From Candidatus Latescibacterota bacterium (GTDB lineage: Bacteria; Latescibacterota; UBA2968; SICM01): a stretch of 64,000 nucleotides of DNA. Within the stretch, counting starts at the first letter, position 1. Each line of letters opens with the position of its first letter. This document shows positions 4,253 to 25,725 of this stretch, piece after piece. The DNA lies in contig CBDCJO010000002.1 of the NCBI GenBank assembly GCA_965217865.1, positions 1,856,001 through 1,920,000 of the forward strand, written 5' to 3'. The position numbers were made by a program, and so were the translations under genes. The notes beneath the pieces were generated by a model, which saw only the letters and a program-made list of their open reading frames with translations, was not told the DNA's origin and ran no database searches.

Positions 4253-4259
4253 GGCCGCA

Positions 4260-7238: not shown

Positions 7239-7242
7239 GATT

Positions 7243-8769: not shown

Positions 8770-9660
8770 ATGCGCATGGCGCGGCTGTTTCAGTCGGTTG
8801 AACGCGCCTGCGGCGAAGCCGGGACGGAGGACGCGCAACGCCTCGTCAACCTGTCGCGTCTGAAGGTCAACAAGGTTCTCCGCGCGCTGCGCAACGACGC
8901 CGGCATCCCGCGCCGTCAGCTGGAAACGGCGGAGCGCCGGGCGGCGGTCAAGATCATGCGGGCGAACACGCCGCTTTGCAGGCTGGTCTCACGGCACACC
9001 CGCGAACTGCTGCGGCAGTACTTCAAGGCGGGCATGTTGACCACACCGATCGCCGACCGCCGGATCGAGGATCGCTTCCTCGAGATGACGGCCCAAGAGC
9101 GGGCGCTCTACGACGCGGTCGAGGATTACATCGCCAGCACCTACAACCAGGCCGGCGACACCGAGCGCACGGCGGTGGGATTCGTCATGACGATATACCG
9201 CCGTCGGCTCGCCAGCAGTTTCAGCGCCCTGCGCAAGACGCTTCAAAACCACCTCGACGCCATTTCCGCCGGCAACCCGGCGTTATTGACGGGTCTGGAC
9301 GAAGACGCGCCGGACGATGAAGCCGCGGACGAAATCCCGGATGCCGACGAGGTGGAAAAGCTGGAGCGCGCGGCCCTCGCCGTCGAAGAGGAGGCCGACA
9401 TCCAAAGCCTCCTTGGCCGCATCGGTCAACTGCCGCCGGACAGCAAGCTCGAAAGCCTGAAGAGCGCCCTCCACGAACTGCGCCAGGACGGCTACCGCCA
9501 GGCGATGGTCTTCACCCAGTACACCGACACCATGGATTTTCTGCGCGGAGAACTCCTGAAGGACGCCGGTTTGAAGTCGATGTGCTTCTCGGGACGCGGT
9601 GGAGAAATACCCTCCTCCGACGGCTCCTGGCGCCGGATCGGCCGCGACGTGGCACGCGAA
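8770..9660 (+). pseudogene. Internal fragment of an SNF2-family helicase
   Basis: SRHTRELLRQY, RRLASSFSAL, DSKLESL, AMVFTQYTDTMDFL. Lacks Walker A/DEAH and motif VI. Confidence 0.65.
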
Positions 9661-9682
9661 GGCAGTCTGACAGAGATGCATC

Positions 9683-9987
9683 ATGACGCCTGAACAGACG
9701 AAATCGCTGGCCCAGACAGGCGAATCCGAAACGCTGGGATTCAAAAGCACCACGGGAACGCGCCGCGAGGCGGTCCAAACGGTGTGTGCCATGCTCAATC
9801 AAAGCGGCGGGCAGGTGCTGTTCGGTGTCTCGCCGGGAGGAGATGTGGTCGGGCAACAGGTGAGCGAGAGAACGATTGAGGAGATAAGCGCCGAGGTCCA
9901 AAGGATTGACCCACCGGCCTTCCCGGAGATCGAGCGGATACACGTAGCTGGCGACCTTAAAGTCATGGAGGTTCGCGTGAGTCAGGG
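9683..9987 (+). pseudogene. 5' fragment of the AlbA_2 (Schlafen-like) regulator
   Basis: GESETLGFKST...CAMLNQSGGQVLFGV; homologous to 15992-16297, with homology ending at ~9987. Confidence 0.8.
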
Positions 9988-10080
9988 AACTACATCCTTC
10001 GGAACCCTTCGTAGCCCGAGCAATTTCCCATCGAACCTCGGGCGAGGGACGCGGAAGTTGCTCGCGTATGAGTAAGTAAG

Positions 10081-10878
10081 ATGACGAGTCTTCCAACCCT
10101 CGACTCTCGGGTTCACTACTCCGGCAGCGTTCAGTCCGTACATTGGGAAGGTCGCCTTGTAGAGGACGCTCTTGGCTTCCAGAGTTACATGCGCGCAGTT
10201 GTGCATCCGCGCGTCTCTGATGATGCGTCACCCTTCGCTTCCGAACTTCGCGGTCTTGCCACGACCGGGATGGAGACAAAGTTCGTTGAGCGCCTGTTGA
10301 ACACCGTGCCTAACCTGGAGGGCTGGGAAGTCGGTGAAGCCCTTGCAGAATGTGCACTCCGGGACGACTCAGCCCGACATGTGGTATGGCCTTGGAATAG
10401 CGTGCGGGATCGTCGAACTCCACGGGCGAGTCTCCCTGGTGCTGATCTCGTTGGCTTCTACTGTGAGGAAGAAAAAGTCGTTCTGCTGTTTGGAGAAGTG
10501 AAAACCTCCTCCGACGTCAGCACGCCGCCCAGCGTGATGAGTGGAGGGAGCGGAATGGCATGGCAACTTCAGGAAAGCGCCACACGTCTTGACATCCAGC
10601 ATGCCCTATTGAAATGGCTGCATGCGCGATGTCGATCCGAACCTTACCGTAATCTCTATCAGAAGGCAGTCAAGCGTTACCTCGCGTCAGAAGGAAAGGA
10701 GCTGCTGATTGTCGGGGTCTTGATTCGCGATACAGCGCCGAGCGAACTAGACCTGAAGGCCCGGGGGAACATGCTGGCGATTCGTCTGAATACATTGACC
10801 CGTGTTGAGCTAATTGCTTGGTACTTGCCCGTGCCAATCTCTGCCTGGCCGGCATTGCTTCAGGAGGCGGTCCAATGA
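10081..10878 (+). CDS. PD-(D/E)XK-type nuclease, HamA-like (Hachiman-like system)
   Basis: WEVGEALAE...PGADLVG...LFGEVKTS motif; translationally coupled (ATGA) to a Ski2-like helicase. Confidence 0.6.
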   Translation: MTSLPTLDSRVHYSGSVQSVHWEGRLVEDALGFQSYMRAVVHPRVSDDASPFASELRGLATTGMETKFVERLLNTVPNLEGWEVGEALAECALRDDSARHVVWPWNSVRDRRTPRASLPGADLVGFYCEEEKVVLLFGEVKTSSDVSTPPSVMSGGSGMAWQLQESATRLDIQHALLKWLHARCRSEPYRNLYQKAVKRYLASEGKELLIVGVLIRDTAPSELDLKARGNMLAIRLNTLTRVELIAWYLPVPISAWPALLQEAVQ

Positions 10879-13800
10879 CCACCGATTCCTGGATCGTCGA
10901 TTCCATAGGCAACGACAAGGTCCGCGATGCCACTATTGAGGCGGGACGGCGGCGGCTCCAGGGTGCGCTCAGTGTCGCCGAGTCCAAACAGCTAACTGAC
11001 GAGCAACTGCGGTTCATCGCCAATGGCCTTGAGATTCGCGTATTCGACCTACTTGACGATGGGAACCCCAATGAACTCTCCACTGCGGCCGCGGAAGTAT
11101 TTCAGGTAGCACGGGTCCTGCCAGTGCCAGAAAAGGCCATGGAGGCAGCTGAAGCACTTGTGCGACTTGGATGCCTTGGCGTCTTGGGAGAGCGTGGTGC
11201 TGATGTCCGACGGCTCCTTCTCGAAAAGGAAATCCCCCCGCTACCAATTGATGCGCCCGATTGGGGAGTGCGCGTCTGGGCGACCATTCTGGACGTTTGG
11301 TTGCGCCTTTTTCGCAAGAGAGGTTGGGACGACCTTGATGCTGTTCAAGAGCGAGTCGCACGTATTCGCTCGGAGCAGAGCAGCTTCGAGCCACCATTCC
11401 TGAGTCAGGCGGAAGAGCAAAGAAACGCAAGGCCGGCGTGGGAGCTTGTTTCTGCCTACCACTTGGCCAAAGCCGCCGAGATTGTCGGCGTTTACCAATC
11501 CCAAGGATCAGTCGACGGACACTACGACGTACAGGAGCAACTCGAAGCGCAGTTCGACCGGGCTATCGCTGCGGCGGGCCGTGGGCAACTCATGGAGCGG
11601 GAGGCGTTGACACGCCTGCTCGCTCTAACCGCCCAGACACTTGTGGACAGCAGTATCTGGACAGTTACGCGTTCCGTGAATAGTCGCGTTACCAAGTTTG
11701 TCGAGTCAATGGTTTCACGTCAGAGCCAGCAACCGATCTTCGAAATGCTGCCTCCGCAGCGACGCACTCTTCGCGAGGAGGGATTGCTCGGATCAGGTCA
11801 CCGCTCTGTCGTCGTGAGCCTCCCGACGTCGAGCGGCAAGACATTCATTGCAGAGTTTCGAATCCTCCAAGCGCTGAATCAGTTTGACCAGGAGCGCGGA
11901 TGGGTAGCGTATCTTGCGCCGACACGCGCTTTGGTCAACCAGTTGACTCTTCGCCTGCGACGGGACTTCGCGGAAATCGGCTGCGGTGTCGAGAAAGTCA
12001 GTCCTGCGCTGGAGATCGATGGTCTAGAAGCCGATATGCTCCTTGAGCGGGAATCTGACCTGCAGTTTCGTATCCTCATTACGACTCCCGAGAAGCTCGA
12101 TCTCATGCTGCGAAATGGTTGGGAGCGAACGATTGGGAGACCATTGACCCTCGTCGTTGTGGACGAGGCCCATGGTATCGCGTCTACGGCACGCGGCTTG
12201 AGGCTGGAGCTGTTGCTTGCCACTGTCAACCGTGAGTGCCGATATGCGCAGTTCCTTTTGCTTACACCATTCATTCATAATGCGGGCGAGATTGCACGAT
12301 GGTTGGCACCCGACAGCAACAAGAGCATCGAACTTGGCGTGGATTGGGTACCCAACGACCGTGTAATTGCCACGGCCCGTCCGCAGAAAGGTGAAGCTCG
12401 CGGCGATTTTCGAGTTGAGTTCACAAGTCAGCATACGACTCGGAAGACAATCCAAATTCCCGAAGCGCTGTCGATCGACATCCAACGCCCGTTGGGGCTG
12501 TCTTGGTCCGATGTTTCCAGATCGCCCGGCAAACTCGCGGCGGCGACGGGTCAGATTCTTCAGCGCCGTGGCACTGTGATTGTCCTTGTCGACAAGCCAA
12601 ATAACAGTTGGGGCGTGGCTGACGCGTTCAAAGTAGACGAGAACCGTCATGAGGTCGAAAGTGAAGACCTCAAGCATATCCAGAATTTCCTGGTAGATGA
12701 AATGGGGTCTGACTTCCCTTTGACATCGCTACTTGGATACGGCATTGGCGTGCACCACTCCGGACTTTCGGAAGACACTAGAACCATTATTGAGTGGTTA
12801 ACAGAAAAAGCGATGCTACGAGTGTTAGTTGCGACCACGACTATTGCGCAGGGTGTCAACTTTCCCGTCTCGGGAGTGGTTTTCGCCAGCCACCAGTATC
12901 CCTATGGGCAAGACATGCCGCCCGAAGATTTCTGGAACATCGCAGGGCGGGCCGGCCGCGTCGATCAAGGCGACCTCGGAATAGTGGCGCTGGCAGGACA
13001 TGACGACACGAAAGTAAGGAAGATTGAGGAGTTCATTGGTCGATCTGTGAGCGCTTTGAACTCAACGCTGATTGACATGATTCAGAAGGTGTACGCCGAG
13101 GGAAACGTGTTGAGGCTCGAGACTCTATCTTGGCGGCCTGAGTGGTCAGCGTTCCTGCAATACCTCGCCCACACCTACAGACAAATCGGTGATCACGAAC
13201 GGTTCGCGGCCGAGGTCGAACAGGTCCTTCGGGGGACCCTTGGATTCCAGGCTCTACGCAGGAACCATCAGGGCTGGGCGGATGAGCTGGTTAATAGCGT
13301 GTACAGCTACGCAGAGCGCATCAAAGGGAAGCCACTTCAGCTCGTAGACCTAACAGGATTCTCTTGGGAGTCGGTCAGCAATACGTTGCGCCGTCTGAAT
13401 GAGGCGCAATTGTCGAGTGAGGTCTGGTCTCCAGATCTTTTTGGGAGGCGCCGTGATGACCTGCAGCGGATGATAGGGGTGCTGCTTCAGGTCCCAGAAC
13501 TTAGAGAACCGCTCAAGGAGGTCACCGGCGGACCACGACCTGATGGGGACACCCTATCTCGGATAATCTGCGACTGGGTTCAAGGCCGTCCACTCGCCGA
13601 AATGGCTACCGAGTACTTCGCGATGAAGTCAGGAGACGAAGTGGAAGGCTATGGTGATGCAGTGGCGGCGATGACGAAATGTTGTACGAGAGTTTTTGGA
13701 CGGCTGACGCAGACGGCATCCTGGGGCTTGGCCGCGCTCCAGGCTCTGACAATCGGGGACACATTTGATTCATTGTCGGCGAACGAGCAGCGGACACTGC

Positions 13801-14045
13801 GAAACCTGCCGGCGCGAGTCTACTACGGTGTGAACTCCGATGAAGCGGTGGCCCTCCGCATTCTGGGTGTCCCTCGGACAGCTGCAGTGCCGCTAGCACA
13901 ACAGCTCGGGGTAGGGACAGCCGAGCCACTGCACCAAGTGCGAGGTAGGGTTCGCGAGGCAGGTGTCGATACATGGAGGGCTGCTCTGGGTGAACGAGGC
14001 GCGAGCTACCACCATGTGTGGTCGATCATCGAGGGTGAAGTGTGA
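10875..14045 (+). CDS. Ski2-like DEAD/DEAH-box helicase, HamB-like
   Basis: PTSSGKT, APTRALVNQ, TTPEKLD, VVDEAH, GVHHSGL, ATTTIAQGVNFP, NIAGRAGR; ~290-aa helical N-terminal region. Confidence 0.8.
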   Translation: MTTDSWIVDSIGNDKVRDATIEAGRRRLQGALSVAESKQLTDEQLRFIANGLEIRVFDLLDDGNPNELSTAAAEVFQVARVLPVPEKAMEAAEALVRLGCLGVLGERGADVRRLLLEKEIPPLPIDAPDWGVRVWATILDVWLRLFRKRGWDDLDAVQERVARIRSEQSSFEPPFLSQAEEQRNARPAWELVSAYHLAKAAEIVGVYQSQGSVDGHYDVQEQLEAQFDRAIAAAGRGQLMEREALTRLLALTAQTLVDSSIWTVTRSVNSRVTKFVESMVSRQSQQPIFEMLPPQRRTLREEGLLGSGHRSVVVSLPTSSGKTFIAEFRILQALNQFDQERGWVAYLAPTRALVNQLTLRLRRDFAEIGCGVEKVSPALEIDGLEADMLLERESDLQFRILITTPEKLDLMLRNGWERTIGRPLTLVVVDEAHGIASTARGLRLELLLATVNRECRYAQFLLLTPFIHNAGEIARWLAPDSNKSIELGVDWVPNDRVIATARPQKGEARGDFRVEFTSQHTTRKTIQIPEALSIDIQRPLGLSWSDVSRSPGKLAAATGQILQRRGTVIVLVDKPNNSWGVADAFKVDENRHEVESEDLKHIQNFLVDEMGSDFPLTSLLGYGIGVHHSGLSEDTRTIIEWLTEKAMLRVLVATTTIAQGVNFPVSGVVFASHQYPYGQDMPPEDFWNIAGRAGRVDQGDLGIVALAGHDDTKVRKIEEFIGRSVSALNSTLIDMIQKVYAEGNVLRLETLSWRPEWSAFLQYLAHTYRQIGDHERFAAEVEQVLRGTLGFQALRRNHQGWADELVNSVYSYAERIKGKPLQLVDLTGFSWESVSNTLRRLNEAQLSSEVWSPDLFGRRRDDLQRMIGVLLQVPELREPLKEVTGGPRPDGDTLSRIICDWVQGRPLAEMATEYFAMKSGDEVEGYGDAVAAMTKCCTRVFGRLTQTASWGLAALQALTIGDTFDSLSANEQRTLRNLPARVYYGVNSDEAVALRILGVPRTAAVPLAQQLGVGTAEPLHQVRGRVREAGVDTWRAALGERGASYHHVWSIIEGEV

Positions 14046-14192
14046 CCGCAGGATCAAATCCGGTGGTGGAACTGGCGAGCACGACAGGCCTGCCACGCCC
14101 CGATATCGAGAATGCCGACGGGAATGTGGCGTGCTTGCCCGACGCTCGGTTCGCGGGTTGACCGGTGTGTCCACTGGTCGCGGTTCAGTACG

Positions 14193-14265
14193 GGCCGGTT
14201 CGACGAATGGCTCGACCTGACGTAGCCAGTACCCCGACTCCTCGACATGGTGCGCGAGCCCTATC
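14193..14265 (+). pseudogene. Short 3' scrap of a SRAP gene
   Basis: gaatggctcgacctgacg...cgactcctcgacatggtgcgcga matches 18053-18110 and 55352-55410. Confidence 0.6.
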
Positions 14266-14334
14266 AGCCCGTTGAAGAACTACCTTTCAACGCACATAAA
14301 CGGAAAAGACGCCTGGAGTGCGGGTCGGATAAAT

Positions 14335-15937
14335 CAACGCGGGCAAAAGCCGGGTACTCCATGACATCGAAGATCACGCCTCAAAGTCATCAACAGGTGT
14401 CGTTGTTAAGGAGGTTACGTTCACGTACTCGGGTACTGTTGATGAACTGACCTCCTATATCAAGAAGCACTCTACATTGGACGAATCCGGCCGCGACCCC
14501 GTCTATAGGGGCTACCGATTTGCAGTGCGATCTGGGCTGCTGTCGCAACTATGGAACCGCCCACTGAGGGAGCTAACTCCCCTTTTCTGCATGCGAATTC
14601 CAACCGAGAAACGCATTACGGATAGTGATCCTGTTCAAGCGGTGGCCTTTCTTGATGAGCCCGGATCTCATCCGATCCACATGCTGTACAAGAACGACGC
14701 ACTTGAGCGCCGGATTAGTGAGTTTTTCTACCGTGCGTTTGGTGAACACCTGATTGTTTTTCGCCTGGGTGGCAGCACGATCCCGCTCTTGGTCGGAGAG
14801 TACTTTGGGCCCGAAGACGGTGAAGACCGAGTCTCCGAGTCCTACAACGTGCGGTTGCGGGAATCCACCACACCGTTAAAAGAACAAGGCGATGGCATGC
14901 GTAGCTTTGCCAGTGTCGTACTACATCTCCTGACTCCTATTACTTCATCTATTCTGCTCCTCGACGAGCCCGAAGCATATCTTCATCCACCACAGGCGCG
15001 ATTGCTCGGGGAAATCATCGCGACTGAACGTCAGGACCTTACTCAACTATTTGTAGCGACACACAGCCCGGACGTGCTTCAGGGTTTGCTCAACGTTGTG
15101 AACGTAGACCATCTTCGCGTAATCCGCATCGAGCGAGATGGAGATGTGAACCACATCAAGGAGCTGAATAAAGATCAAGCAAGAGAGATTGGTAGTGATC
15201 CTCTGATGAAATACTCGTCTGTGTTGTCAGGCGTCTTTCACGAACGCGTCATAATCTGTGAGGCGGACACCGACTGCATGTTCTACAGTTCTCTATTGGA
15301 CATTCCTGAAGTACATGGTGGTCCTCAACCTGACGTTTTATTCGTCCACGCGAGCGGTAAGCACCGTATGGCCGTTCAGGCCCGAGCGTTAGCAGCACTC
15401 GGAGTTCATGTCGATGTCATCGCGGATATGGACGTGCTCCAAGAGGAAGCGGATTTGCAAAGAATATTCGAAGCTCTTGGAGGCGATTGGTCAAGGGTAC
15501 AGGCAAAAGTGAGAAGCGTGAGAACAGCAATCGAAACTCATAAGCCCTGGTTGAACGCCGAAGAAGTGTCAAAGGGTATTCGGACGGAACTAGAGGGCGT
15601 TGGTCAAGCAGGTGAATTTCCACGGTCAGCCCAGCAAGACATTACCGCGTATTTTCGCAAGGCATCACCATGGGATGTCGTTAAGGATACTGGAGAGGCC
15701 GCCATACCCTCCGGACAGGCTACGACGGAGTACGGGGAGCTGAGGGAGGCCTTTCAACACAAGGGGTTGTGGATCGTTCCGGTCGGTGAGCTTGAAGGCT
15801 TCTGCAAGAATGTCGGGGGACATGGACCCAGGTGGGTCCAAGAGGTCATTGGAAAGTACGATCTGGTGAACTCTGATGAGCTGAGGATAGCTCGTGAATT
15901 CGTTGGCAAAGTGTGGCAAGCGAGGAGAGCCTCGTGA
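14335..15937 (+). pseudogene. OLD-family nuclease, 3' part (ATPase lacking its N-terminus, plus TOPRIM)
   Basis: In-frame TAA at 14330 directly before INAGKS, so Walker A is cut. Walker B LLLDEPE; TOPRIM IICEADTD...VIADMD. Confidence 0.75.
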
Positions 15938-15991
15938 ACCGAACGGGACTCATCGTAAGCTCCTCCTTCGACACGCCGTAAGAATGTGCCG

Positions 15992-17395
15992 ATGACGCCC
16001 GAACAACTCACAGCGCTGGTCGCGACAGGCGAGTCCGAGACGCTGGAGTTCAAGAGCACGACCGGGACCCGTCGTGAGGCGGCCAGGACGGTGTGCGCCA
16101 TGCTCAACCAGCGCGGTGGGCACGTGCTGTTCGGTGTCACGTCGAGAGGAGATGTGGTCGGGCAGCAGGTGAGCGAGCGAACGATTGAAGAGGTGAGTGC
16201 CGAGATCCAAAGGATCGACCCGCCGGCCTTTCCGGAGATCGAGCGGGTCCAAGTAGCGGAAGACCGGGAGGTGATTGCGGTCCGCGTGAACCAGGGCTCC
16301 GCACGTCCGTACCAGTACCGGGGCACCGCCTATCGCCGGGTTGGCAACACCACCGTGGCCTTGTCGACCGAGGAGTACAACCGGGTGCTCTTTGAGCGCA
16401 TGCACAGTGAGAAGCGCTGGGAGAACCAGCCCGCTACCGGGTGGTCGGTCGAGGACCTCGACGTGGCCGAGATTCGCAACACGGTTGCAGAGGCCGTCCG
16501 TATCGGCCGGCTGAATGAACCTGGTAGTCGGGAACCGGAGGATCTGCTGCGCGGGCTCGGGCTGATCCGCGACGGCGTCCTGTTCCGCGCGGCGGCGGTG
16601 CTGTTCAGTAACGCCGAGCGACTTGAGTTCGAAATGCCGCAGTGCCTGCTCCGTGTGGCTCGTTTCCGGGGTCTCGACCGGAGCGAATTCCTGGACAACC
16701 GACAGTTCAACGGCAACGCCTTAGAGCTGCTCTCGAGCGCGGAGCGCTTTCTACGCGACACCCTTCCCATCGCAAGCCGGTTCGAACCGGGCCGCATCCA
16801 GCGCATTGACGAACCGCTTTACCCGCCTCTGGCCACACGGGAAGCTCTGGCGAACGCCCTGTGCCATCGGGATTATGCGTTGGGCGGCGGCTCGGTGGGG
16901 CTGGCGGTGTACGACGACCGTCTTGAGGTGACATCGACTGGTTCACTGCACTTTGGACTGACCCCGGACGAGCTGTTCGGGCCGCACGAGTCGAGGCCGT
17001 GGAACCCGCTGATCGCCCGCACATTCTACCGGCGCGGCATCATCGAGGAATGGGGCCGCGGAACGCTCAAGATGGCGGAGCTGGCAACCTCCGCGGGCCT
17101 ACCGCGCCCCGAGATCGAAGATGCCAGTGGAGCCGTGACGGTACGATTCCGGCACGGCCAAGTCGTGCCATCTCAGCGTAGCGGGAGCGCCGTAATCGAA
17201 AGGCAAAATGCAATTCTCGCCCTGTTGGATCGCGCGGAAGGTGGCTTGGCGTTACGCGAGATTCACGCACAATTGCCCCTAGACGTCAGCGAGCGTCAGG
17301 TAAGAAGGGCCTTAACGGAGTTGAGGGACCGTGGGCTGGCAGTGTCCACGGGCCCCGGTCCGGCGGCGCGGTGGAAGCTTTCGCAAGGCCAGTAG
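15992..17395 (+). CDS. AlbA_2 (Schlafen-like) + HATPase_c_4/RecG-C + C-terminal HTH protein
   Basis: GESETLEFKST, CAMLNQRGGHVLFGV, REALANALCHRDY, NPLIARTF, IEEWGRGT and a winged-helix tail. Confidence 0.85.
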   Translation: MTPEQLTALVATGESETLEFKSTTGTRREAARTVCAMLNQRGGHVLFGVTSRGDVVGQQVSERTIEEVSAEIQRIDPPAFPEIERVQVAEDREVIAVRVNQGSARPYQYRGTAYRRVGNTTVALSTEEYNRVLFERMHSEKRWENQPATGWSVEDLDVAEIRNTVAEAVRIGRLNEPGSREPEDLLRGLGLIRDGVLFRAAAVLFSNAERLEFEMPQCLLRVARFRGLDRSEFLDNRQFNGNALELLSSAERFLRDTLPIASRFEPGRIQRIDEPLYPPLATREALANALCHRDYALGGGSVGLAVYDDRLEVTSTGSLHFGLTPDELFGPHESRPWNPLIARTFYRRGIIEEWGRGTLKMAELATSAGLPRPEIEDASGAVTVRFRHGQVVPSQRSGSAVIERQNAILALLDRAEGGLALREIHAQLPLDVSERQVRRALTELRDRGLAVSTGPGPAARWKLSQGQ

Positions 17396-17402
17396 AGGTG
17401 CC

Positions 17403-17457
17403 ATTAGACCCCTATCTGACCCCCAGGGGTCTAATAGGGGTCAAATGGGGGTCTGAT
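17403..17457. repeat. Array of five abutting 11-bp units (consensus RGGGGTCWRAT): two on the minus strand, three on the plus strand
   Basis: ATTAGACCCCT ATCTGACCCCC AGGGGTCTAAT AGGGGTCAAAT GGGGGTCTGAT, read directly. Confidence 0.85.
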
Positions 17458-17527
17458 TCATTGCACGCTCACGAGGGCCGCAGCTCGGGCCAGAAACTCG
17501 GGGCGAAGACGTGGAGAGCACCCGACG

Positions 17528-18223
17528 ATGTGTGGCCGTTTCACCCAGATGCTAACTTGGCGTCAGATTCACGACCTCTACAGCCTGACAGGATCGGCTC
17601 TCCCTCTGAATCTGGAGCCTCGCTACAACGGTGCGCCAACTCAGGATTTCGCGGCGTGCCGGCTCGATGACGATGGCAACCGTTCTATCGCCAAGCTCCG
17701 CTGGGGGTTGGTGCCTTCCTGGGCGAAGGACGTGAGCATGGGCACGCGTCTCATCAACGCCCGGGCAGAGACCGTCCACACCAAACCGTCCTACGGCGAT
17801 GCCTTTCGTTCTCGTCGGTGCCTAGTGCCGGCCAACGGATGGTTCGAATGGCAGGCGACCGGGCGCGGCAAGCAGCCCTACTTCCTGGTGCTCGCGGACG
17901 GATCGCCGCTGTCGTTCGCCGCGCTGTGGGAGCGCTGGGACAAGGATGAAAAATCCCTGGAGTCGTTCACCATTATCACCACGGCGGCCTCCCCGCACCT
18001 TGCCGACATCCGCCACCGACAGCCGGCGATAGTCCACCCCGGCCGGTCTGCTGAATGGCTCGATCTGACGTCGCCGGCGCCACGACTCCTCGACTTGGTG
18101 CGTGAATCCCATGGCGGCCCTTACGAGCGGCGCGCCGTCAGCACCAGAGTGAACAGCGTCCGGCACGACGATCCAGGCATTCTGGCCCCCAGGTCGGAGA
18201 GGGGACAATCGGCAACACCGTAG
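17528..18223 (+). CDS. SOS response-associated peptidase (SRAP/YedK/HMCES family)
   Basis: N-terminal MCGRF, RYNGAPTQ, WGLVPSWAKD, INARAET, RRCLVPANGWFEW, H-RQP. Confidence 0.92.
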   Translation: MCGRFTQMLTWRQIHDLYSLTGSALPLNLEPRYNGAPTQDFAACRLDDDGNRSIAKLRWGLVPSWAKDVSMGTRLINARAETVHTKPSYGDAFRSRRCLVPANGWFEWQATGRGKQPYFLVLADGSPLSFAALWERWDKDEKSLESFTIITTAASPHLADIRHRQPAIVHPGRSAEWLDLTSPAPRLLDLVRESHGGPYERRAVSTRVNSVRHDDPGILAPRSERGQSATP

Positions 18224-18238
18224 CTAGGGCTGCCTTTC

Positions 18239-21200
18239 GTGAAACGAATTGAGGATTCCTTAGAACTCAGCGCCATCGACTTGGTCGGGTACCTTAATTG
18301 CCGTCATCTTTCCGAACTGGACCGTGCGGTAGCCGAAGGTGCTTTGGCGAAGCCCAAAGTCTGGAATCAACCCCTTCTGCAAATTCTTTGGGAACAAGGT
18401 CTTGTTCACGAGCAGAACTATGTTGAGCACCTGACGAAGGACGGTGTGGAGTTTGTCAGAATTGAGGGCATAGAAGTTACAGACGAAGCGGTCTCTCAAA
18501 CGCTTGCGGCCATGAAACGAGGTGCGAGGGTGATCGTTCAGGGGGCGCTGTCCCACGATAGTTGGGTCGGACGTGCCGACATTCTGCGCCGTATCGAAGT
18601 CCCGAGTGCGATTGGCAACTGGTCGTATGAGGTGATCGACACAAAGCTCGCGCGTGAAACGAAAGCGGGAACCGTGCTCCAGCTTTGTCTCTATTCCGAT
18701 CTTCTGACAGAGGCTCAAGGCCTGGAGCCTGAGTACATGTATGTTGTCGCGCCATGGTCCGACTTTGAGCCACAGCAATATCGATTTGCGGACTACGCCG
18801 CCTATTTTCGGAAGGTGAAGCATGGTTTGTCAGCGGCTCTAGCAAAACGAGACACGGTAGGGACTTATCCCGATCCGATAGAACATTGCGACATATGCCG
18901 ATGGCGGCAAACTTGCGAAAAGCGTCGCCACGGCGATGATCACCTTTGCCTCGTGGCAGGGATCTCGAAGATTCAGATCAACGAGCTGAACCAGCGCGGG
19001 ATTACAACCGTGCGGGGCTTGGCTGGTATGCCCTTACCGCTGGATTGGAAACCGGATCGCGGCGCAGCTGAGTCCTATGGCCGCATCCGCGAGCAGGCGC
19101 GGGTTCAAATCGAAGGTCGTGAGGCCGGTGAGGGAAAATTCGAACTGTTCCCGGTGGAGACTGGATTCGGCCTCACCCGCCTTCCTGAACCGTCGGACGG
19201 GGACATTTTCTTCGACCTGGAGGGTGATCCGTTCGTTGGCGAGCACGGCCTCGAATATCTTTTCGGCTTCTTGTTCATTGGTGAAACCGGACAGACCGTA
19301 TACAGGAGTGAGTGGGCCTTTTCACGGGTCGAAGAAAAGCAGACCTTCGAGGATTTTGTCGATTTCGTCATGGCGCGCTGGGAGCAATTCCCCAGCATGC
19401 ATATCTACCACTACGCTCCTTATGAGCCGTCGGCCTTGAAGCGTCTGATGGGCCGTTACGCGACGCGGGGAGAGGAGATCGACCAGATGCTTCGCGCAGG
19501 GATATTTATCGACCTCTACCAAGTGGTACGCCGCGGTATTCGTGCGAGCGTAGAAAGCTACTCCCTAAAGCAGTTGGAATCGTTCTATTCGTTCGAACGG
19601 GAGACGGCATTGGCCGATGCGAATGCCGCCCTGGCGAATCTCCAGGCAAACCTCGAACTCAATGCCATTCCCTCAATTGCAGATGAGATTGGGGCCACTG
19701 TCGTTGCCTACAACAAGGATGATTGTCGCTCTGCCGCCGGCCTGCGGGACTGGCTAGAAACATTGCGGGCGCAGCTTGTCACTGATGGAGTAGACGTGCC
19801 CCGCCCGGAATTGGGCGATGGCGCCCCAAGCGAAAATGTCACGGATTGGCTGATCCGGATAAACGCATTGGTCGAACAGCTGAGCACAGATGTCCCTGTA
19901 GACCCGGAAGAGCGGGATGAGGAGCAGCAAGCACGTTGGATACTGGCCAACATCCTCGACTGGCACCGCAGAGAAGAAAAATCGGTGTGGTGGGAGCACT
20001 TCCGGTTGGCTGAGCTCTCTGAAGAGGATCTGCGGGATGAACGGGCTGGGCTCTCCGGTCTTAGTTTTTTGAGACAGGCCGGCGGCACCGCCAGAGCGCC
20101 GATTCACCGTTATAGGTTTCCGCCGCAAGAAACCGAGCTCCGTGGCGGCGAGGATCTCCGCAATCTCGGCGGAGACAAGCTGGGTAAGGTCGAGGCGATT
20201 TCCTTTGACGACTGCACAGTTGACATCAAGAAGCGTCAGGACAGCGTCGCGACCCACCCGCAAGCCGTCTTTGCACTTACGTACGTCAATGCGCAGGTAC
20301 TCAAGGATTCTCTCGTGCGGCTCGGTGAGTATGTGGCCCAGCATGGCCTGCGTGGAGAAGGGCCTAATCGGGTTGCCCGCGATCTCTTGTTGAAAGAAGC
20401 CCCGCGTGTCGGCGGGCAAGAGCTGCATCGTGATGGAGAAACGACAGTCGAAGCAGCTATCCGACTATGCGGGCATCTGGCTTACGGCGTTCTTGCGATT
20501 CAAGGGCCGCCCGGCGCGGGCAAGACCTTCACGGGCGGGCGCATGATTTGTGAGTTGGTGCGCCAGGGCAAGACAGTTGGCATCACGGCAAACAGTCATA
20601 AGGTCATCCACAATCTGATCGATGCGGCCATTGAAGCAGCAGGTGAGATGGACCTGGATCTGCAATGTTGCCACAAGGCTGCTCAAGTGGAGCAACCCCA
20701 GCACCGCCTTTCCTTTGCCAGGAGCAATGAAGACCTGTTTGCTGCGCTTGGAACCGGCGTATCTGTCGCTGGTGGAACCGCCTGGCTATGGTCGCGTCCT
20801 GAGGCATTCGAGACAGTCGATGTCCTGTTTGTCGATGAGGCCGCGCAAATGTCGCTCGCGAATGTGTTGGCCGTTTCGCAGGCTGCCAAAGCCGTGGTGC
20901 TGATCGGCGATCCGCAGCAGCTCGATCAACCAATTCAGGGCAGTCATCCGGACGGGACGGATGTCTCTGCGCTCGATCACATTTTGGCCGGTGAACAGAC
21001 CATATCCCCAGACAAAGGGTTGTTCCTCAAAGAAACTTGGCGGCTGCATCCTGATATATCTGCGTACACGTCCGAGCTTTTCTATGAAAGCAAGCTCAGT
21101 TCAAAAGCTGGGCTTGAAAAACAGATCATCAAGGCGGCGGGTCCGATCAGCAGTTCCGGTCTGCGTTACTTGCCCGTTGAACACGACGGCAATCAGAACT

Positions 21201-21643
21201 GCTCGCCTGAAGAGGCTCAGGCGCTCAGTACTCTTGTGAAGGATATTCTGGAAAACGACGCCACCTGGGTTGATCGAGACGGCCAGGAACGACCCGTTGC
21301 GCTCGGCGATATCGTTATCATCACGCCCTACAACGCACAGGTCTTTGAGATTCAGCAACGCTTGCCGGGAGCGCGGGTTGGCACGGTGGACAAGTTTCAG
21401 GGCCAGGAAGCGCCGATTGCGATCTATTCGACGGCAACGTCAAGCTATGCGGACGCGCCGCGGGGGATGGGATTTCTATACAGCCTCAATCGACTTAACG
21501 TTGCGACGTCCCGGGCAAAATGCGTATCGATCATGGTCAGCTCCCCGCGAATCTTCGAATCGGAATGCCGCACGCCACGGCAAATGCAATTGGCAAATGC
21601 CTTCTGCCGCTATCTCGAAATGGCAGATCGGGTGCCCAATTAG
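18239..21643 (+). CDS. TM0106-family RecB-like nuclease fused to an RNase H-like domain and an SF1 (UPF1-like) helicase
   Basis: GRADIL...YEVIDTKLAR, DLEGDP, HYAPYE, YNKDDC, QGPPGAGKT, VDEAAQ, GDPQQL, TVDKFQGQEA, NVATSRA. Confidence 0.88.
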   Translation: MKRIEDSLELSAIDLVGYLNCRHLSELDRAVAEGALAKPKVWNQPLLQILWEQGLVHEQNYVEHLTKDGVEFVRIEGIEVTDEAVSQTLAAMKRGARVIVQGALSHDSWVGRADILRRIEVPSAIGNWSYEVIDTKLARETKAGTVLQLCLYSDLLTEAQGLEPEYMYVVAPWSDFEPQQYRFADYAAYFRKVKHGLSAALAKRDTVGTYPDPIEHCDICRWRQTCEKRRHGDDHLCLVAGISKIQINELNQRGITTVRGLAGMPLPLDWKPDRGAAESYGRIREQARVQIEGREAGEGKFELFPVETGFGLTRLPEPSDGDIFFDLEGDPFVGEHGLEYLFGFLFIGETGQTVYRSEWAFSRVEEKQTFEDFVDFVMARWEQFPSMHIYHYAPYEPSALKRLMGRYATRGEEIDQMLRAGIFIDLYQVVRRGIRASVESYSLKQLESFYSFERETALADANAALANLQANLELNAIPSIADEIGATVVAYNKDDCRSAAGLRDWLETLRAQLVTDGVDVPRPELGDGAPSENVTDWLIRINALVEQLSTDVPVDPEERDEEQQARWILANILDWHRREEKSVWWEHFRLAELSEEDLRDERAGLSGLSFLRQAGGTARAPIHRYRFPPQETELRGGEDLRNLGGDKLGKVEAISFDDCTVDIKKRQDSVATHPQAVFALTYVNAQVLKDSLVRLGEYVAQHGLRGEGPNRVARDLLLKEAPRVGGQELHRDGETTVEAAIRLCGHLAYGVLAIQGPPGAGKTFTGGRMICELVRQGKTVGITANSHKVIHNLIDAAIEAAGEMDLDLQCCHKAAQVEQPQHRLSFARSNEDLFAALGTGVSVAGGTAWLWSRPEAFETVDVLFVDEAAQMSLANVLAVSQAAKAVVLIGDPQQLDQPIQGSHPDGTDVSALDHILAGEQTISPDKGLFLKETWRLHPDISAYTSELFYESKLSSKAGLEKQIIKAAGPISSSGLRYLPVEHDGNQNCSPEEAQALSTLVKDILENDATWVDRDGQERPVALGDIVIITPYNAQVFEIQQRLPGARVGTVDKFQGQEAPIAIYSTATSSYADAPRGMGFLYSLNRLNVATSRAKCVSIMVSSPRIFESECRTPRQMQLANAFCRYLEMADRVPN

Positions 21644-21776
21644 ATGACATCGCATACGCCTACCGACCTTGTCGGCAGGTTGATGGGCTCACAAGGCGGG
21701 CTGCTCGCCCTTACCAGCAGGCGGGTCCGCCTTGACCATCGCCTTAGCAACATCACGAATGCGGTCTCCTCGGGGC

Positions 21777-21975
21777 TTGCCGACATCCGCCACCGACAGC
21801 CGACGATAGTCCACCCCGGCCGGTCTGCTGAATAGCTCAATCTGACGTCGCCGGCGCCACGACTCCTCGACTTGGTGCGTGAACCCCATGGCGGCCCTTA
21901 CGAGCGGCGCGCCGTCAGCACCAGAGTGAACAGCGTCCGGCACGACGATCCGGACATTCTGGCTCCCCGGTCGGA
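21777..21975 (+). pseudogene. Duplicated 3' end of the SRAP gene
   Basis: Near-identical to 18000-18198, with a TGG>TAG stop. Confidence 0.85.
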
Positions 21976-21982
21976 GCTGGAG

Positions 21983-22170
21983 CTCTTTTGACCGAGAGGG
22001 CGGAAATCGGCGTTAATTGCCACCATCCATGTTTTCTCGATGGAGGGGGAAATCGGAGTCAAAAGCACTTCCCTCAGGCGAACCTTGGAGAACGATCTGT
22101 TGACCTTCGTAAGCCCACGCAAATCAACGGATTACGCATGTCCGTGGTAAGGGAGCGTGGATTGCGGGAA
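21983..22170 (+). repeat. Island-end arm repeat, copy A (lacks the CCCTCCACCA core)
   Basis: Colinear with 25513-25700 at offset 3530; also homologous to 55566-55690. Confidence 0.85.
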
Positions 22171-22334
22171 TTTAAGGAGAAGTTCGATGAAAAGTTACTC
22201 GTGCATCGGGGTCAAATGCATTGCTGGTTTCGAGTACCAGGCCGAAACCCGGTCGACCGAGTGGATTTGAAGAGACGCTATGTGCGGGGAGGTTATAGGT
22301 TGGTTGAAGGACTTTGAATAAGGGGGAAACGGCC

Positions 22335-25238
22335 ATGACCCAGCCGCATGGGCGCAATTTGACCCCTAGGAGTTCTCTGCACGTTGGACGAACCGGCCTA
22401 GCCTCGTTTTTGTTCGCGCTCCTTCATCCTGGGGGCGCCAAAGCTGCGACGGTGAATGCGGACATCTTGACACTGACTCGCGCGACCGGATCGATGGAAA
22501 TCCCCTTTCGGGAGATTGAGACGGCTGAGGTAAGGGCCGGGTGGTTCTGGAGCGGTATGCGAGTCCGTTTCGCCTCCGGGGAAGTCACCGTATCGGGGCT
22601 GGCGAAGCCCAACGCACTGGCGTTCACCGATGCACTGGAGAGCGCGAGAGTCGGCTGGTGGCGAAGAACCCTGGTTGCACACATTGGAACGCTTCGATCC
22701 GTTCACGACCGCTTGGTGCAGCTTGCCGACCCGCCCAGGTACATGGCCCGCAGCGTCTTTTCCGACCTCGAGCGTGATGCCAAAGACGCGGTCGCCCAGT
22801 TCCCCTCTCGGTGGCCCGGCAAGCTATCTGGCACCGCACAAATCCGAATGCTAAAGGCGATACAGGATTTCTCGAAAGAAACAGAAGCTTACCGGGCGCG
22901 AGCCAACGACACCTTTGTGGGCAACGAGTTGGTCCGGTCTCGGGAATTCTTCGACAGGGTCGAGGCACGGCCGCTCACAGACGAGCAACGGAGAGCGGTC
23001 GTCGTCGATGAGGACCGCAACCTGGTCGTTGCGGCTGCGGGTAGCGGCAAGACATCTGTCATCGTGGCCAAGGCCGGCTGGCTCCTTCAGAAAGGTTACC
23101 GGCACCCGTCGGAACTGCTGCTGCTTGCGTTCGCCAAAGACGCCCAGAAGGAGATGGAGGAGAGGGTCTGCGGCCGGCTAGGCGATGAGGCGGTGGCCCA
23201 GCTAACCGTTCGGACGTTTCACAGCCTGGGCATGTCCATCATCGGCGCAGTGGAGGGTAAACGTCCAGCACTGGCCAAGGTCGCCGAGGACGACAAGTCT
23301 CTGTTCGACCTGCTTAAAAACATCATTGCCGACCTACTTGCCGATCCCAAATTCTCGAACGTCATGCTCAGATGGTTCGAGGAGCACTTCGTCCCCCACC
23401 GGAGCGAGCACGAGTTCCGAACCCAGGGCGAATATTGGGACTACGTCCGAGCAAACGAAATCCGGTCATTACAGGGCGAAAAGCTCAAGAGCTTTGAGGA
23501 ATGCGAAATCGCCAGTTTCCTGTATCTCAACGGTGTGCCCTACGAGTACGAACGCTCCTACGAGCACGAAACCGCGACGTCGGAGAGGCGGCAGTACCAG
23601 CCCGACTTCTACCTTCCGGACGCCGGGATTTACATCGAACATCTTGCACTGTCCGCGTCGGGCGATACGCCTCCTTTCATCGACCGCGAGGAATATCTCC
23701 GGTCAGTTGCCTGGAAGCGTCAGCTTCATTCCGAGCATGGAACCGTGCTCATCGAGACCTACAGTCACGAAAAGGCTGCCGGTAAGCTGATCGAGAAATT
23801 GGCGGCAAAACTGGCCGACCATGGTGTGACGCTATCTCCGATCCCTTCTGACGAAGTCTTTGCCGTCCTCGAACAGCAAGGTCGAATTGACCCGTTCACG
23901 CGCTTGGTTGCGACCTTTCTCCAACACTTTAAGGGAGCACAGCTCTCCGCCGAGGAAGTGGCCCGGCGAGCCGCGAACGCTCCCCGCCGCCCGCGGGCGG
24001 TGGCTTTCGTTGCGGTGTTTCGACCGATCTTCGAGCGCTACCAGGACTCGCTGGCCCGACTGCGGCAGATCGACTTCCACGACATGATCGGCAAAGCGAA
24101 GGAACACGTGGAGAGTGGACGCTACCGGAATCGGTTTGACTACATCCTTGTCGACGAGTTCCAAGACATCTCGCCAGGACGGGCGCGGCTGCTGAAGGCG
24201 TTGCTGGACACGTCCCAGACCGCCCAATTGTTCGCCGTCGGCGACGATTGGCAGGCAATCTACAGATTTGCCGGCTCGGACATCGCCATCATGCGCGAGT
24301 TCCGGGAACGCTTCGGGGAGAGCGAGCGTGTCAACCTTGAGACAACATTCCGGTGCGCCGATCGCATCGCCGCCGTAGCAACGAAATTCGTCTTAAGCAA
24401 CCCGGCGCAAATTCGCAAGAATGTCTCCTCCACGCGTCAGGCGAATGGACCTTGCGTGCATGTCGGCCTTCCCGGAGAGGAATGCCCCGATCTATTGAGG
24501 GAGGCCCTGGAAGCGATCGCCGTGGACGCGGCGAAGACCGACGGAACGCCGACTGTTCTGCTGATGGGCCGGTATAGGCACTCGCGACCGGAGAACATGG
24601 CTGAGCTGGCGAGGGAACATCCCGGTCTGAGTCTCTCCTACATGACCGTGCACCGCTCGAAAGGGCTTGAGGCTGACTACGCCGTAGTGATCGACTTGTG
24701 CTCCGGAAAGTACGGTTTTCCCGCCGAGATCGTCGATGACCCGCTGCTTGATCTGGTCCTCGCGGCGCCCGAAGGGCATCCGAACGCCGAGGAACGGCGT
24801 CTGCTCTATGTCGCCATTACACGAGCCCGTCGCCATGTCTTTCTTCTTGCTGATGGCGGCTCGCCATCCTCATTTATTTTGGAATTGATCAAGGACGGCT
24901 ATAACGTCACCGTATTCGGTGAGCCTCCGGATGACGACGTTGCTTGCCCAAAGTGTGTAGAAGGGCGACTAAAGCGAAGAGAAGGCTCCCGGGGCACGTT
25001 CTATGGATGTTCGCACTATCCATATTGCGAACACAGAGAGTCCGCTTGTCCCCATTGCGGAAGAGGATTACCGGTGAAAACCGACGTGGCCATCCGTTGC
25101 CGCGACTGTGGCGAGCTCCTCGAGGGATGCCCGAAGTGCAACGGATGGCTTCAGATTAGAAACAGTCCGTATGGGCATTTTGGGGGTTGTTCAAATTATC
25201 CCACTTGCGACTACACCAGAGATATCCGGCGGGGATGA
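22335..25238 (+). CDS. UvrD/HelD (DNA helicase IV)-like SF1 helicase with C-terminal topoisomerase-type zinc ribbons
   Basis: AAAGSGKT, VDEFQD, VGDDWQAIYRF, TVHRSKGLEAD, EERRLLYVAITRAR; internal YQPDFY..IYIEH nuclease-like insert; C-terminal CPKC/GCSHYPYC/GCSNYPTC. Confidence 0.85.
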   Translation: MTQPHGRNLTPRSSLHVGRTGLASFLFALLHPGGAKAATVNADILTLTRATGSMEIPFREIETAEVRAGWFWSGMRVRFASGEVTVSGLAKPNALAFTDALESARVGWWRRTLVAHIGTLRSVHDRLVQLADPPRYMARSVFSDLERDAKDAVAQFPSRWPGKLSGTAQIRMLKAIQDFSKETEAYRARANDTFVGNELVRSREFFDRVEARPLTDEQRRAVVVDEDRNLVVAAAGSGKTSVIVAKAGWLLQKGYRHPSELLLLAFAKDAQKEMEERVCGRLGDEAVAQLTVRTFHSLGMSIIGAVEGKRPALAKVAEDDKSLFDLLKNIIADLLADPKFSNVMLRWFEEHFVPHRSEHEFRTQGEYWDYVRANEIRSLQGEKLKSFEECEIASFLYLNGVPYEYERSYEHETATSERRQYQPDFYLPDAGIYIEHLALSASGDTPPFIDREEYLRSVAWKRQLHSEHGTVLIETYSHEKAAGKLIEKLAAKLADHGVTLSPIPSDEVFAVLEQQGRIDPFTRLVATFLQHFKGAQLSAEEVARRAANAPRRPRAVAFVAVFRPIFERYQDSLARLRQIDFHDMIGKAKEHVESGRYRNRFDYILVDEFQDISPGRARLLKALLDTSQTAQLFAVGDDWQAIYRFAGSDIAIMREFRERFGESERVNLETTFRCADRIAAVATKFVLSNPAQIRKNVSSTRQANGPCVHVGLPGEECPDLLREALEAIAVDAAKTDGTPTVLLMGRYRHSRPENMAELAREHPGLSLSYMTVHRSKGLEADYAVVIDLCSGKYGFPAEIVDDPLLDLVLAAPEGHPNAEERRLLYVAITRARRHVFLLADGGSPSSFILELIKDGYNVTVFGEPPDDDVACPKCVEGRLKRREGSRGTFYGCSHYPYCEHRESACPHCGRGLPVKTDVAIRCRDCGELLEGCPKCNGWLQIRNSPYGHFGGCSNYPTCDYTRDIRRG

Positions 25239-25512
25239 GGACTCGCGATACTCCGCCCCTTAGCAACCAGGGCGAAATGGGTCGAACAGCATCTGACGGA
25301 CTCCCTGGCCTCGATGTCGAAGACGGAGCTCACTCAGTTATGAAAAGGGTTGCGCAAAGGGAGCTCCTGGTCGAGCCCCTTGGGGGTGGAAGGGCTGGCT
25401 CTGGGCATGGCGGATCAGGTATGCGCTTGTTGCAGCCATCGACGGATGCGGTGTTTGGGTGTGTCATGGGGGAATTCGCGCGCGATGTCAGGAGGTTCTG
25501 ATCGGAGAGGTG

Positions 25513-25725
25513 CTCTCTTGACCGGAGGGGCGGAAATCGGCGTTAACTGCGACCATTGACATTTTCTCGACCGAGGGGGAAATCGGAGTCAAAAGCACTT
25601 CCCTTAGGCGGACCTTGGAGAACGACCTGCTGACCTTCGTAAGCCTATTTAAATAAACGGATTACGCATGTCCGCGCCAATGGAGCGTGGATTGCGGGAA
25701 GGCTGCAAGCCCTCCACCATTCTTC
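25513..25725 (+). repeat. Island-end arm repeat, copy B, with CCCTCCACCA core at 25710-25719 (candidate att junction)
   Basis: Homologous to copies A and C; lies upstream of the DUF2924/serine recombinase module. Confidence 0.75.

What the first reader, a model, noticed from the sequence alone, without database searches (positions are those of the whole stretch)
9683..25719. Defence cargos bracketed by duplicated pieces of one AlbA_2-SRAP-arm module: a possible cassette-accretion platform
Seen: the Hachiman-like pair sits between an AlbA_2 5' fragment (9683-9987) and a SRAP 3' scrap (14193-14265). TM0106 sits between two copies of the SRAP 3' end (18000-18198 and 21777-21975). The HelD-like gene sits between two copies of the 188-bp arm (21983-22170 and 25513-25700). 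The same AlbA_2-array-SRAP-arm order recurs at 53153-55708. Inference: the conserved island end acts as a homology landing pad where nuclease-helicase genes are added or removed as units without a dedicated integrase. I know of no description of this module.
Basis: partly seen in the sequence, partly recalled or inferred. Interest (0 to 1): 0.72.

Follow-up and report, generated by a model that had tools for sequence, protein, structure and literature searches.

The report
Stacked ends of tmRNA defence islands
The repeated gene pieces are real and lie at the variable right end of two related islands that carry their own integrase gene and sit in tandem behind the tmRNA gene, where extra nuclease and helicase genes were likely added by ordinary recombination anchored in shared backbone DNA, not by a new cassette system.

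Summary
The repeats exist and contigs of other runs bridge most junctions. The stretch is the right end of island A (50.7 kb), followed in tandem by sibling island B (30.0 kb). Both are bounded by the tmRNA 3' core and each encodes an intact large serine recombinase, so 'no dedicated integrase' is wrong at island level; the 'arm' is the sequence next to the right attachment site. The three brackets differ. PDC-M23 (Hachiman-like) replaces the middle of one eroded AlbA_2 copy. The helicase IV gene sits between two 86%-identical arms here, but without flanking repeats in other genomes. Only TM0106 shows a recombination footprint: the same gene and junctions occur in a Nitrospira island, yet here both SRAP flanks belong to another allele and are nearly identical in the middle. 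Breakpoints in relatives are scattered, so no fixed site. Wider pattern: 12 of 80 loci with this AlbA_2 gene carry an orphan 5' piece upstream, mostly in type I restriction operons. Best reading: homology-anchored insertion with long target duplication plus tandem accretion and deletion, all described processes. Interest modest.

The parts
1..25719 (+). Right half of island A (whole island G000:C2:1831053 to window 25719, about 50.7 kb; begins at the tmRNA 3' end 24.9 kb left of the window with DUF2924, large serine recombinase, LexA-like, primase, methylase, GATase, GmrSD, SNF2, type III RM)
7390..8298 (+). First copy of a 909-bp duplication inside an OLD/AAA_21-like ATPase gene (5' part, cut at 8298)
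8299..9680 (+). Scraps of a methylase-like region and an SNF2 helicase from a sibling locus
   Evidence: matches L015
9683..9987 (+). AlbA_2 5' piece (80% to the intact copy); start of a 130-aa ORF that keeps Pfam positions 1-95 of 118
10081..14045 (+). PDC-M23A (265 aa) and PDC-M23B (DEAD helicase, HamB-like), replacing the middle of the eroded AlbA_2 copy
14064..14116 (+). AlbA_2 3' scrap (75% over 53 nt)
14193..14261 (+). SRAP 3' scrap starting near codon 172
14262..14337 (.). Truncated end of an insertion sequence (94 hits in the genome)
14338..15937 (+). Second copy of the OLD-like duplication and the gene's 3' part
15986..17395 (+). Intact AlbA_2 - HATPase_c_4 - HTH gene (469 aa)
17403..17457 (.). 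Short 11-bp direct and inverted repeats after AlbA_2
17528..18223 (+). Intact SRAP gene (231 aa); last codons replaced at the TM0106 left junction (about 18202)
18239..21643 (+). TM0106-family nuclease-helicase (1134 aa), orthologous with both junctions to the Nitrospira island L011
21752..21992 (+). SRAP 3' piece (codon 150 onward, with an internal stop); first 24 nt Nitrospira-like, middle nearly identical to the intact SRAP
21971..22170 (+). Internal arm copy, ending 10 bp short of the attachment core
22314..25238 (+). DNA helicase IV-like gene with C-terminal zinc ribbons (974 aa)
25502..25710 (+). Terminal arm of island A (island-side half of the right attachment site)
25711..25719 (+). 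Attachment core, a copy of the last 9 nt of tmRNA; boundary between islands A and B
26559..28668 (+). DUF2924 and large serine recombinase of island B (97% and 96% identical to those of island A)
48648..50967 (+). Further eroded module in island B: AlbA_2 3' end (48648-48781), short repeats (50791-50824), SRAP 5' piece (50869-50967), split by an IS1595 remnant
53141..55699 (+). Module at the right end of island B: frameshifted AlbA_2, repeats, SRAP with a 198-bp deletion, two short mobile inserts (54361-54597, 55027-55126), arm of a second allele type
55700..55708 (+). Attachment core at the right end of island B

Best explanation
The stretch is the variable right end of a defence island that lies behind the tmRNA gene in tandem with a sibling island, each encoding a large serine recombinase that likely integrated it, and the duplicated pieces are likely scars left when incoming DNA from related islands recombined into the shared AlbA_2-SRAP-arm backbone. 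Shown: island boundaries, recombinase genes, repeats, different cargos at the same module in other genomes, scattered breakpoints, and a change of SRAP allele around TM0106. Inferred: a donor piece (linear with one homologous and one illegitimate end, or a small circle looped out between the two SRAP 3' copies of a donor) crosses over in the host's SRAP or arm, leaving backbone-cargo-backbone; host recombination proteins would do this, not the recombinase. Later deletions and IS hits eroded older copies. PDC-M23 is a replacement within one eroded copy; for helicase IV, insertion and tandem accretion followed by deletion cannot be told apart.
For: tmRNA at C2:1830702-1831061 and three cores at C2:1831053, window 25711 and 55700; left 3.4 kb of A and B 95.5% identical; intact recombinases. 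Same family at tmRNA in G027 (recombinase 88%) and at tRNA-Ala in Nitrospira G170 (89%). L011:11464-15363 aligns with window 18045-21976 in one piece at 83.7%, yet the two window SRAP copies differ at 4 of 176 central sites against 14 of 53 end sites (Fisher p 4e-7, boundaries chosen after seeing the differences), are sisters in a tree (93/87, unstarred) and trees pairing them with their Nitrospira counterparts are rejected (AU p 7e-6 and 0.008); the arm allele also switches. Modules A and B fall from 92-99% to 70-86% identity inside SRAP. Homology to the SRAP-arm reference starts anywhere from position 1 to 814 of 886 in 21 segments. Orphan AlbA_2 5' pieces upstream of an intact copy: 12 of 80 loci; 10 of 62 against 3 of 317 other long genes (p 1e-6, kin not independent); in 4 of 10 tested the piece is joined to a second hsdS tail. 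Insertion with long target duplication is described for RM genes (PMC2853133, passages).
Against: The arm pair shows no chimeric pattern against four outgroups (permutation p 0.7-1.0). The SRAP chimerism test is significant only against the Nitrospira copy (p 0.02; 0.35-0.90 against three others). The homogenised SRAP tract could be gene conversion between inherited repeats, with no movement of the cargo. The TM0106 case rests on two genomes; no other TM0106 match was found in 167 other genomes of the phylum. No circle or cassette-less joint was seen. Most of the loci with AlbA_2 5' orphans are Dehalococcoidia and lack SRAP and arm; only 2 of 80 AlbA_2 loci have SRAP pieces beside them.
Confidence: 0.6

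Rival explanations
1. Tandem accretion and deletion only: the recombinase integrated three or more sibling islands or mini-islands one behind another at the tmRNA core, and ordinary deletions removed the cores and left halves in between, so each cargo with its downstream SRAP or arm piece is the surviving right end of a separate island; similarity between neighbouring copies was later raised by gene conversion.
For: Tandem arrays are seen here, in G039, G068 and G170. Single right ends with cargo abutting a cut SRAP or arm are the rule: 8 of 9 from other genomes have no bracket (four are one genus). The internal arm ends 10 bp before the core. The arms are only 86% alike without chimerism. The OLD duplication ends at a truncated IS with a 3-nt overlap, as a deletion would. 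Tandem ssrA islands and accretion are described (PMC3146451, passages).
Against: Needs a deletion end point within about 200 bp of the attachment site twice in a row; does not explain the switch of SRAP allele 24 nt past the TM0106 junction without added recombination; does not explain AlbA_2 5' orphans in type I operons where no recombinase or arm was found in most loci.
Confidence: 0.28
2. One reading: AlbA_2-SRAP-arm is a dedicated, integrase-free landing pad on which defence cassettes are added and removed reversibly as units, perhaps helped by SRAP or AlbA_2.
For: Three different cargos (PDC-M23, TM0106, helicase IV) are found on this module in four genomes; a 9-nt overlap joins the end of the SRAP duplicate and the start of the arm duplicate; SRAP scraps start at positions 514-525 in four segments.
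Against: Breakpoints spread over 800 nt; the cluster at 514-525 looks like one inherited deletion allele (flanks, by eye); SRAP and AlbA_2 are broken or absent in most ends; helicase IV has no flanking repeats in G069 and G036 and no module part within 20 kb in 4 of 6 loci examined; repeats of 86-93% identity are poor substrates for easy reversal (general knowledge).
Confidence: 0.08
3. The repeats are assembly artefacts from merged strains.
For: The genome is listed with 9.3% contamination and communities hold many relatives of the island.
Against: Copies differ by 7-20%; contigs from two other studies bridge the helicase IV and PDC-M23 junctions without differences; the TM0106 arrangement recurs in Nitrospira. 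The 99% OLD duplication is the least secured: its IS-side junction was not bridged in listed pieces.
Confidence: 0.03

Closest known systems
Dehalococcoides ssrA genomic islands (McMurdie et al. 2011, PMC3146451; passages read)
   Same: Tandem islands behind tmRNA, bounded by repeats of its 3' end, with a CcrB-like serine recombinase next to the left boundary, discordant integration and cargo modules, and integrase-less members attributed to accretion.
   Different: Here the common repeat is 9-10 nt, the module is DUF2924 + recombinase + primase/RecD2 on the forward strand, the cargo is defence genes, and an AlbA_2-SRAP-arm end is present; relatives also use tRNA-Ala.
Insertion with long target duplication of restriction-modification genes (Furuta, Abe and Kobayashi 2010, PMC2853133; passages read)
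   Same: Defence genes under 20 kb flanked by direct repeats over 30 bp of variable length, often spanning a start or stop codon, without a transposase.
   Different: Cargos here are helicase and nuclease genes without a methylase pair, repeats are 200-900 bp and 86-99% alike, and they lie inside a mobile island rather than in the core chromosome.
Orphan arrays at T6SS/Rhs loci by homology-facilitated illegitimate recombination (Kirchberger et al. 2017, PMC5361080; passages read)
   Same: A conserved stretch is proposed as anchor, successive insertions leave truncated backbone pieces from different donors.
   Different: Those arrays are effector-immunity pairs; here the cargos are unrelated defence genes and both 5' (AlbA_2) and 3' (SRAP, hsdS) pieces are left.
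Pipolins (PMC11551731; passages read)
   Same: Integrative islands with a small core and a defence-rich, exchanged cargo, often at tRNA/tmRNA.
   Different: No primer-independent PolB was found among the island genes scanned; the replication gene is a DnaG-type primase-helicase.

Membership tests
tmRNA-targeting serine-recombinase genomic island (ssrA-GI type) | Located directly behind the tmRNA gene and closed by a direct repeat of its 3' end | tested here: met
tmRNA-targeting serine-recombinase genomic island (ssrA-GI type) | Large serine recombinase next to the left boundary | tested here: met
   Resolvase + Recombinase + zinc ribbon in both islands; CcrB model E 8e-45, below cut-off
tmRNA-targeting serine-recombinase genomic island (ssrA-GI type) | Tandem arrays at one site | tested here: met
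   A + B here; arm-core-left end joints in G039 and G068
Dehalococcoides ssrA-GI in the strict sense | Six-gene module with DsiB, DsiA (PinR), RecF-like, ParBc, Mom on the reverse strand | tested here: not met
   different gene set and orientation (against PMC3146451)
tmRNA-targeting serine-recombinase genomic island (ssrA-GI type) | Excision and integration by the recombinase | not testable with these tools
   needs att-site assay or raw reads; only contigs were served
[quoted passage not shown] | Insert under 20 kb with duplication over 30 bp | tested here: met
   TM0106 225 bp, helicase IV 200 bp, OLD-bracketed block 909 bp
[quoted passage not shown] | Insert holds both R and M genes | tested here: not met
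   cargos are TM0106, helicase IV-like and PDC-M23; works like, not a member
[quoted passage not shown] | Empty allele with a single copy of the target in a related genome | tested here: inconclusive
   uninterrupted SRAP-arm-core in G068 (78% over 886 nt) and G039, but these are other islands, not the same locus in a close strain
Integron-like or other site-specific cassette array | Fixed recombination site at every cargo boundary | tested here: not met
   start points 1-814 of 886; no shared motif at the window's junctions by inspection
Hachiman (for the 10081-14045 pair) | HamA (DUF1837) plus HamB helicase | tested here: not met
   no Pfam or HamA match, no PDB match at E below 0.087 for the small gene; best model PDC-M23A/B
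Strand-biased circularizing integrative elements (SE) | intA-tfp-intB-srap with tyrosine recombinases | tested here: not met
   their 'Srap' is an unrelated auxiliary protein (PMC10214605, passages); no tyrosine recombinase among window genes scanned

The most novel reading that the evidence does not exclude
The 5' end of this AlbA_2-HATPase gene and the 3' end of SRAP act as community-wide homology anchors: because near-identical copies sit in restriction operons and island ends of many phyla, defence genes can be stacked one after another across phylum boundaries by host recombination, each step leaving a backbone fragment that can anchor the next exchange.
Probability: 0.3. Interest if true: 0.55.

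Novelty: new member of a known kind. Interest (0 to 1): 0.33.

Why it matters
As it stands it is a clear worked example of how a defence island grows: site-specific integration of whole islands at tmRNA, then gene-by-gene gain at a conserved end. The processes are described. What would add something is the wider pattern: the same AlbA_2 gene leaves orphan 5' pieces in front of new cargo in about one locus in six, and the TM0106 unit is shared with an island of another phylum. If that holds up with independent lineages, AlbA_2 5' and SRAP 3' fragments become cheap markers for finding new defence genes and for measuring cross-phylum exchange.

Tried and rejected
A 9-nt repeat at 18194-18202 and 25502-25510 first looked like a target-site duplication around one 7.3-kb insert; dropped because TM0106 and helicase IV have separate histories in relatives and the 9 nt are part of the SRAP end itself. 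Chimerism test on the arm pair: negative. The 79-nt repeat at 14259-14337 is the end of a longer IS, not a MITE. Pattern scan of metagenome contigs: 31 hits, only L117 is a real island end, the rest match little beyond the 19-mer; pattern scan of viral contigs: 0. 18 viral contigs encode relatives of the recombinase (52-71%); none showed SRAP, AlbA_2 or an arm in the 5.7-21 kb held. Plasmid search: best 40%. PDC-M23 DNA: 1 other match (G018, 67%) in 167 genomes. Arm/SRAP DNA in 50 + 5 genomes behind the AlbA_2 loci: 6 and 0 matches, only G170 a full island end; in 201 genomes of the family of G174: 13 matches, SRAP pieces, none with arm and core in the 8 looked at. First control for AlbA_2 orphans (0 of 40 hsdR, 0 of 34 hsdM) covered only gene middles and was replaced by the whole-ORF control (loci under 21 kb and ORFs near locus ends were left out). 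Runs: no RNA holder listed; no joint skipping TM0106 or helicase IV listed (1 joint; 15 of 42 shown), which says little because contigs cannot phase the repeats; low cover of PDC-M23 and OLD in X5 is not proof of absence. Rfam found nothing in the window itself. Earlier-findings look-ups by place and words were empty.

Full report
Observation. It also finds a 909-bp, 98.9% duplication inside an OLD-like ATPase (7390-8298 / 14324-15232). A more sensitive search adds an AlbA_2 3' scrap at 14064-14116 and shows that 14262-14337 is the cut end of an IS with 94 hits in the genome. A further remnant lies at 48648-50967. The cargos are PDC-M23A/B, a TM0106-family nuclease-helicase and a helicase IV-like gene. 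Contigs from other runs bridge the PDC-M23 and helicase IV junctions without differences (X2, X3, X4 of one study, X5, X7 of another); the two TM0106 junctions are bridged by X1 only among the pieces listed, and X1 may be the source. The extra base that breaks AlbA_2 in module B and its 198-bp deletion also appear in X2, X3 and X5.

What the stretch is. The window is G000:C2:1856001-1920000. A tmRNA gene ends 24.9 kb to its left. Its last nine bases recur at window 25711 and 55700, each time directly after an arm. The 3.4 kb after the tmRNA are 95.5% identical to window 25711-29112, and both stretches encode DUF2924 and a full-length large serine recombinase (96% identical). So there are two sibling islands in tandem, A (50.7 kb) and B (30.0 kb), both with primase, GATase and restriction genes. 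The arm is the island-side half of the right attachment site, and AlbA_2-SRAP-arm is the island's right end.

Relatives. The recombinase is 88% identical in G027 (island behind tmRNA, 44 kb), 91% in G039 and 89% in a Nitrospira MAG (G170, island behind tRNA-Ala, which ends in the same bases). Arm-core-left end joints in G039 and G068 show tandem arrays there too. Nine right ends with arm and core came from other genomes (G027, G039, G068, G137, G141, G154, G156, G170, L117; four are one genus, two loci are short). Their cargos differ, and only G170 has a SRAP duplicate around a cargo. Homology to a SRAP-arm reference starts at positions 1 to 814 of 886 across 21 segments, which argues against a fixed recombination site.

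TM0106. L011:11464-15363 aligns with window 18045-21976 in one piece at 83.7%, with the same two junctions, so the bracket is inherited and not a window-specific event. G170 did not turn up when the whole phylum (168 genomes) was searched with this DNA, so it belongs to another phylum. The flanks, however, do not follow the gene. The two window copies differ at 4 of 176 central sites and 14 of 53 end sites (p 4e-7, boundaries set after seeing the data); the first seven informative differences match the Nitrospira right copy (permutation p 0.02; not significant against three other outgroups). In a 14-row tree the two window copies are sisters (93/87, unstarred) near G039 and G068, and trees joining them with their Nitrospira counterparts are rejected (AU p 7e-6 and 0.008). 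The arm behind them is also of the other allele type. One insertion of the unit into a new SRAP allele explains this most simply; gene conversion of inherited repeats is not excluded. Modules A and B are mosaic as well, falling from 92-99% to 70-86% identity inside SRAP.

Helicase IV and PDC-M23. A long match to the helicase gene exists in 22 of 167 other genomes of the phylum. Of six examined, four have no module part within 20 kb; in G036 and G069 it follows an AlbA_2 3' remnant, in G069 with a short SRAP scrap behind it, and neither has flanking repeats. The two arms around it in the window show no chimeric pattern, and the inner one stops 10 bp before the core, so insertion with duplication and tandem accretion followed by deletion both fit. 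PDC-M23 lies between the 5' and 3' parts of one AlbA_2 copy, a replacement; that whole eroded end sits inside the OLD duplication.

A wider pattern. In 80 genome loci with an intact relative of the AlbA_2 gene (69-85% identity, many phyla), the gene sits mostly in or beside restriction operons and has SRAP pieces next to it in only 2. Yet 12 of 80 carry a same-strand 5' piece of it (65-250 bp, 72-92%) 0.3-4.2 kb upstream, against 1 upstream 3' piece. With whole ORFs as control the count is 10 of 62 against 3 of 317 (p 1e-6, but most are Dehalococcoidia and some share a junction). Genes between piece and intact copy include HepT, DUF3800, AAA_21-DUF4435, HicA and Fic. In 4 of 10 tested the piece is fused to a second hsdS tail. 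Four more AlbA_2 5' pieces lie elsewhere in G000. This supports homology-anchored stacking as a habit of this gene, not of the AlbA_2-SRAP-arm module as a unit.

Mechanism. Shown: boundaries, recombinases, repeats, cargo variation, scattered breakpoints, allele switch around TM0106. Inferred: whole islands integrate by the recombinase; single genes then enter when DNA from a related island pairs with the shared backbone, one end joining by homology and the other illegitimately or through a small circle, which leaves a partial duplicate; deletions and IS insertions erode older copies. I give this 0.6, pure accretion-and-deletion 0.28, a dedicated reversible platform 0.08, artefact 0.03.

Known systems. 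Tandem islands at tmRNA with a serine recombinase and accretion of integrase-less members are described for Dehalococcoides (PMC3146451, passages; Pavlovic et al. 2004 seen only in its reference list). Insertion of restriction genes with long, variable target duplications, often spanning a start or stop codon, is described in PMC2853133 (passages). Anchored insertion leaving orphan pieces is proposed for T6SS arrays (PMC5361080, passages); a unit of 3' gene end plus next 5' end is described for S. aureus lpl clusters (PMC2568036, abstract). Pipolins are a parallel defence platform (PMC11551731, passages). The 'Srap' of SE elements is an unrelated protein (PMC10214605, passages). Bacterial Schlafen domains are reported as anti-phage nucleases (PMC13056530, search listing only). 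Searches listed no paper on this island family or this module; the library lacks most subscription journals and supplements were not opened.

Verdict. New member of a known kind, interest 0.33.

Noticed in passing
G000 genome-wide, e.g. C2:240160, 62476, 376995, 3344066; C1:620047: A second element family: 50 matches to a 370-bp stretch that joins an arm, the 3' end of tRNA-Asn and a left end; about ten carry a SRAP 3' scrap in front, some are fused to cas1-like sequence (by eye), and copies lie near recombinase paralogues at C2:134610 and 820138 (40-49% to the window's). One copy follows the tRNA-Asn gene on C1.
   Followed up: partly
L020, L033, L044, L075 (also L056): Type I operons read hsdS - cargo - AlbA_2 5' piece joined to a second hsdS tail - cargo - intact AlbA_2 - hsdR: both neighbours of the cargo slot are duplicated head to tail.
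   Followed up: partly
window 7390-8298 and 14324-15232: Youngest duplication in the region (99%), inside an OLD-like ATPase-Toprim gene, bracketing 6 kb; contigs of X2 and X3 carry the second copy's letters at four sites of the first copy.
   Followed up: partly
L127, L128, L130, L131 (G141, G156, G137, G154): Short recombinase-less elements of 3.4-13.2 kb between tmRNA and an arm + core, with sulfatase and other metabolic genes; likely remnants of one old island in that genus.
   Followed up: partly
L162-L176 (viral contigs): Elements with 68-71% recombinase, DUF2924, sigma-like, RecD2 and primase genes in the same order as islands A and B; L175 starts at a tmRNA gene. The backbone looks phage- or satellite-derived; no structural genes were looked for beyond the flanks held.
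   Followed up: partly
G177 (L137) and G154 (L131): Type I RM region behind tmRNA with 60-380-bp direct repeats that are adjacent in the first copy and 1.5 kb apart in the second, another stacking pattern.
   Followed up: no
window 55710-56200: GIY-YIG gene flanked by short palindromic repeats directly after the last attachment core.
   Followed up: no
window 42760-44769: DUF4062 - HATPase_c_4 - Fic-like_C gene between hsdS and hsdR of island B, a different N-terminal domain on the same scaffold as the AlbA_2 gene.
   Followed up: no
L008:13000-15000 and L120 (G039): A CRISPR array with cas1 and cas3 lies inside the island upstream of the SRAP-arm end.
   Followed up: no
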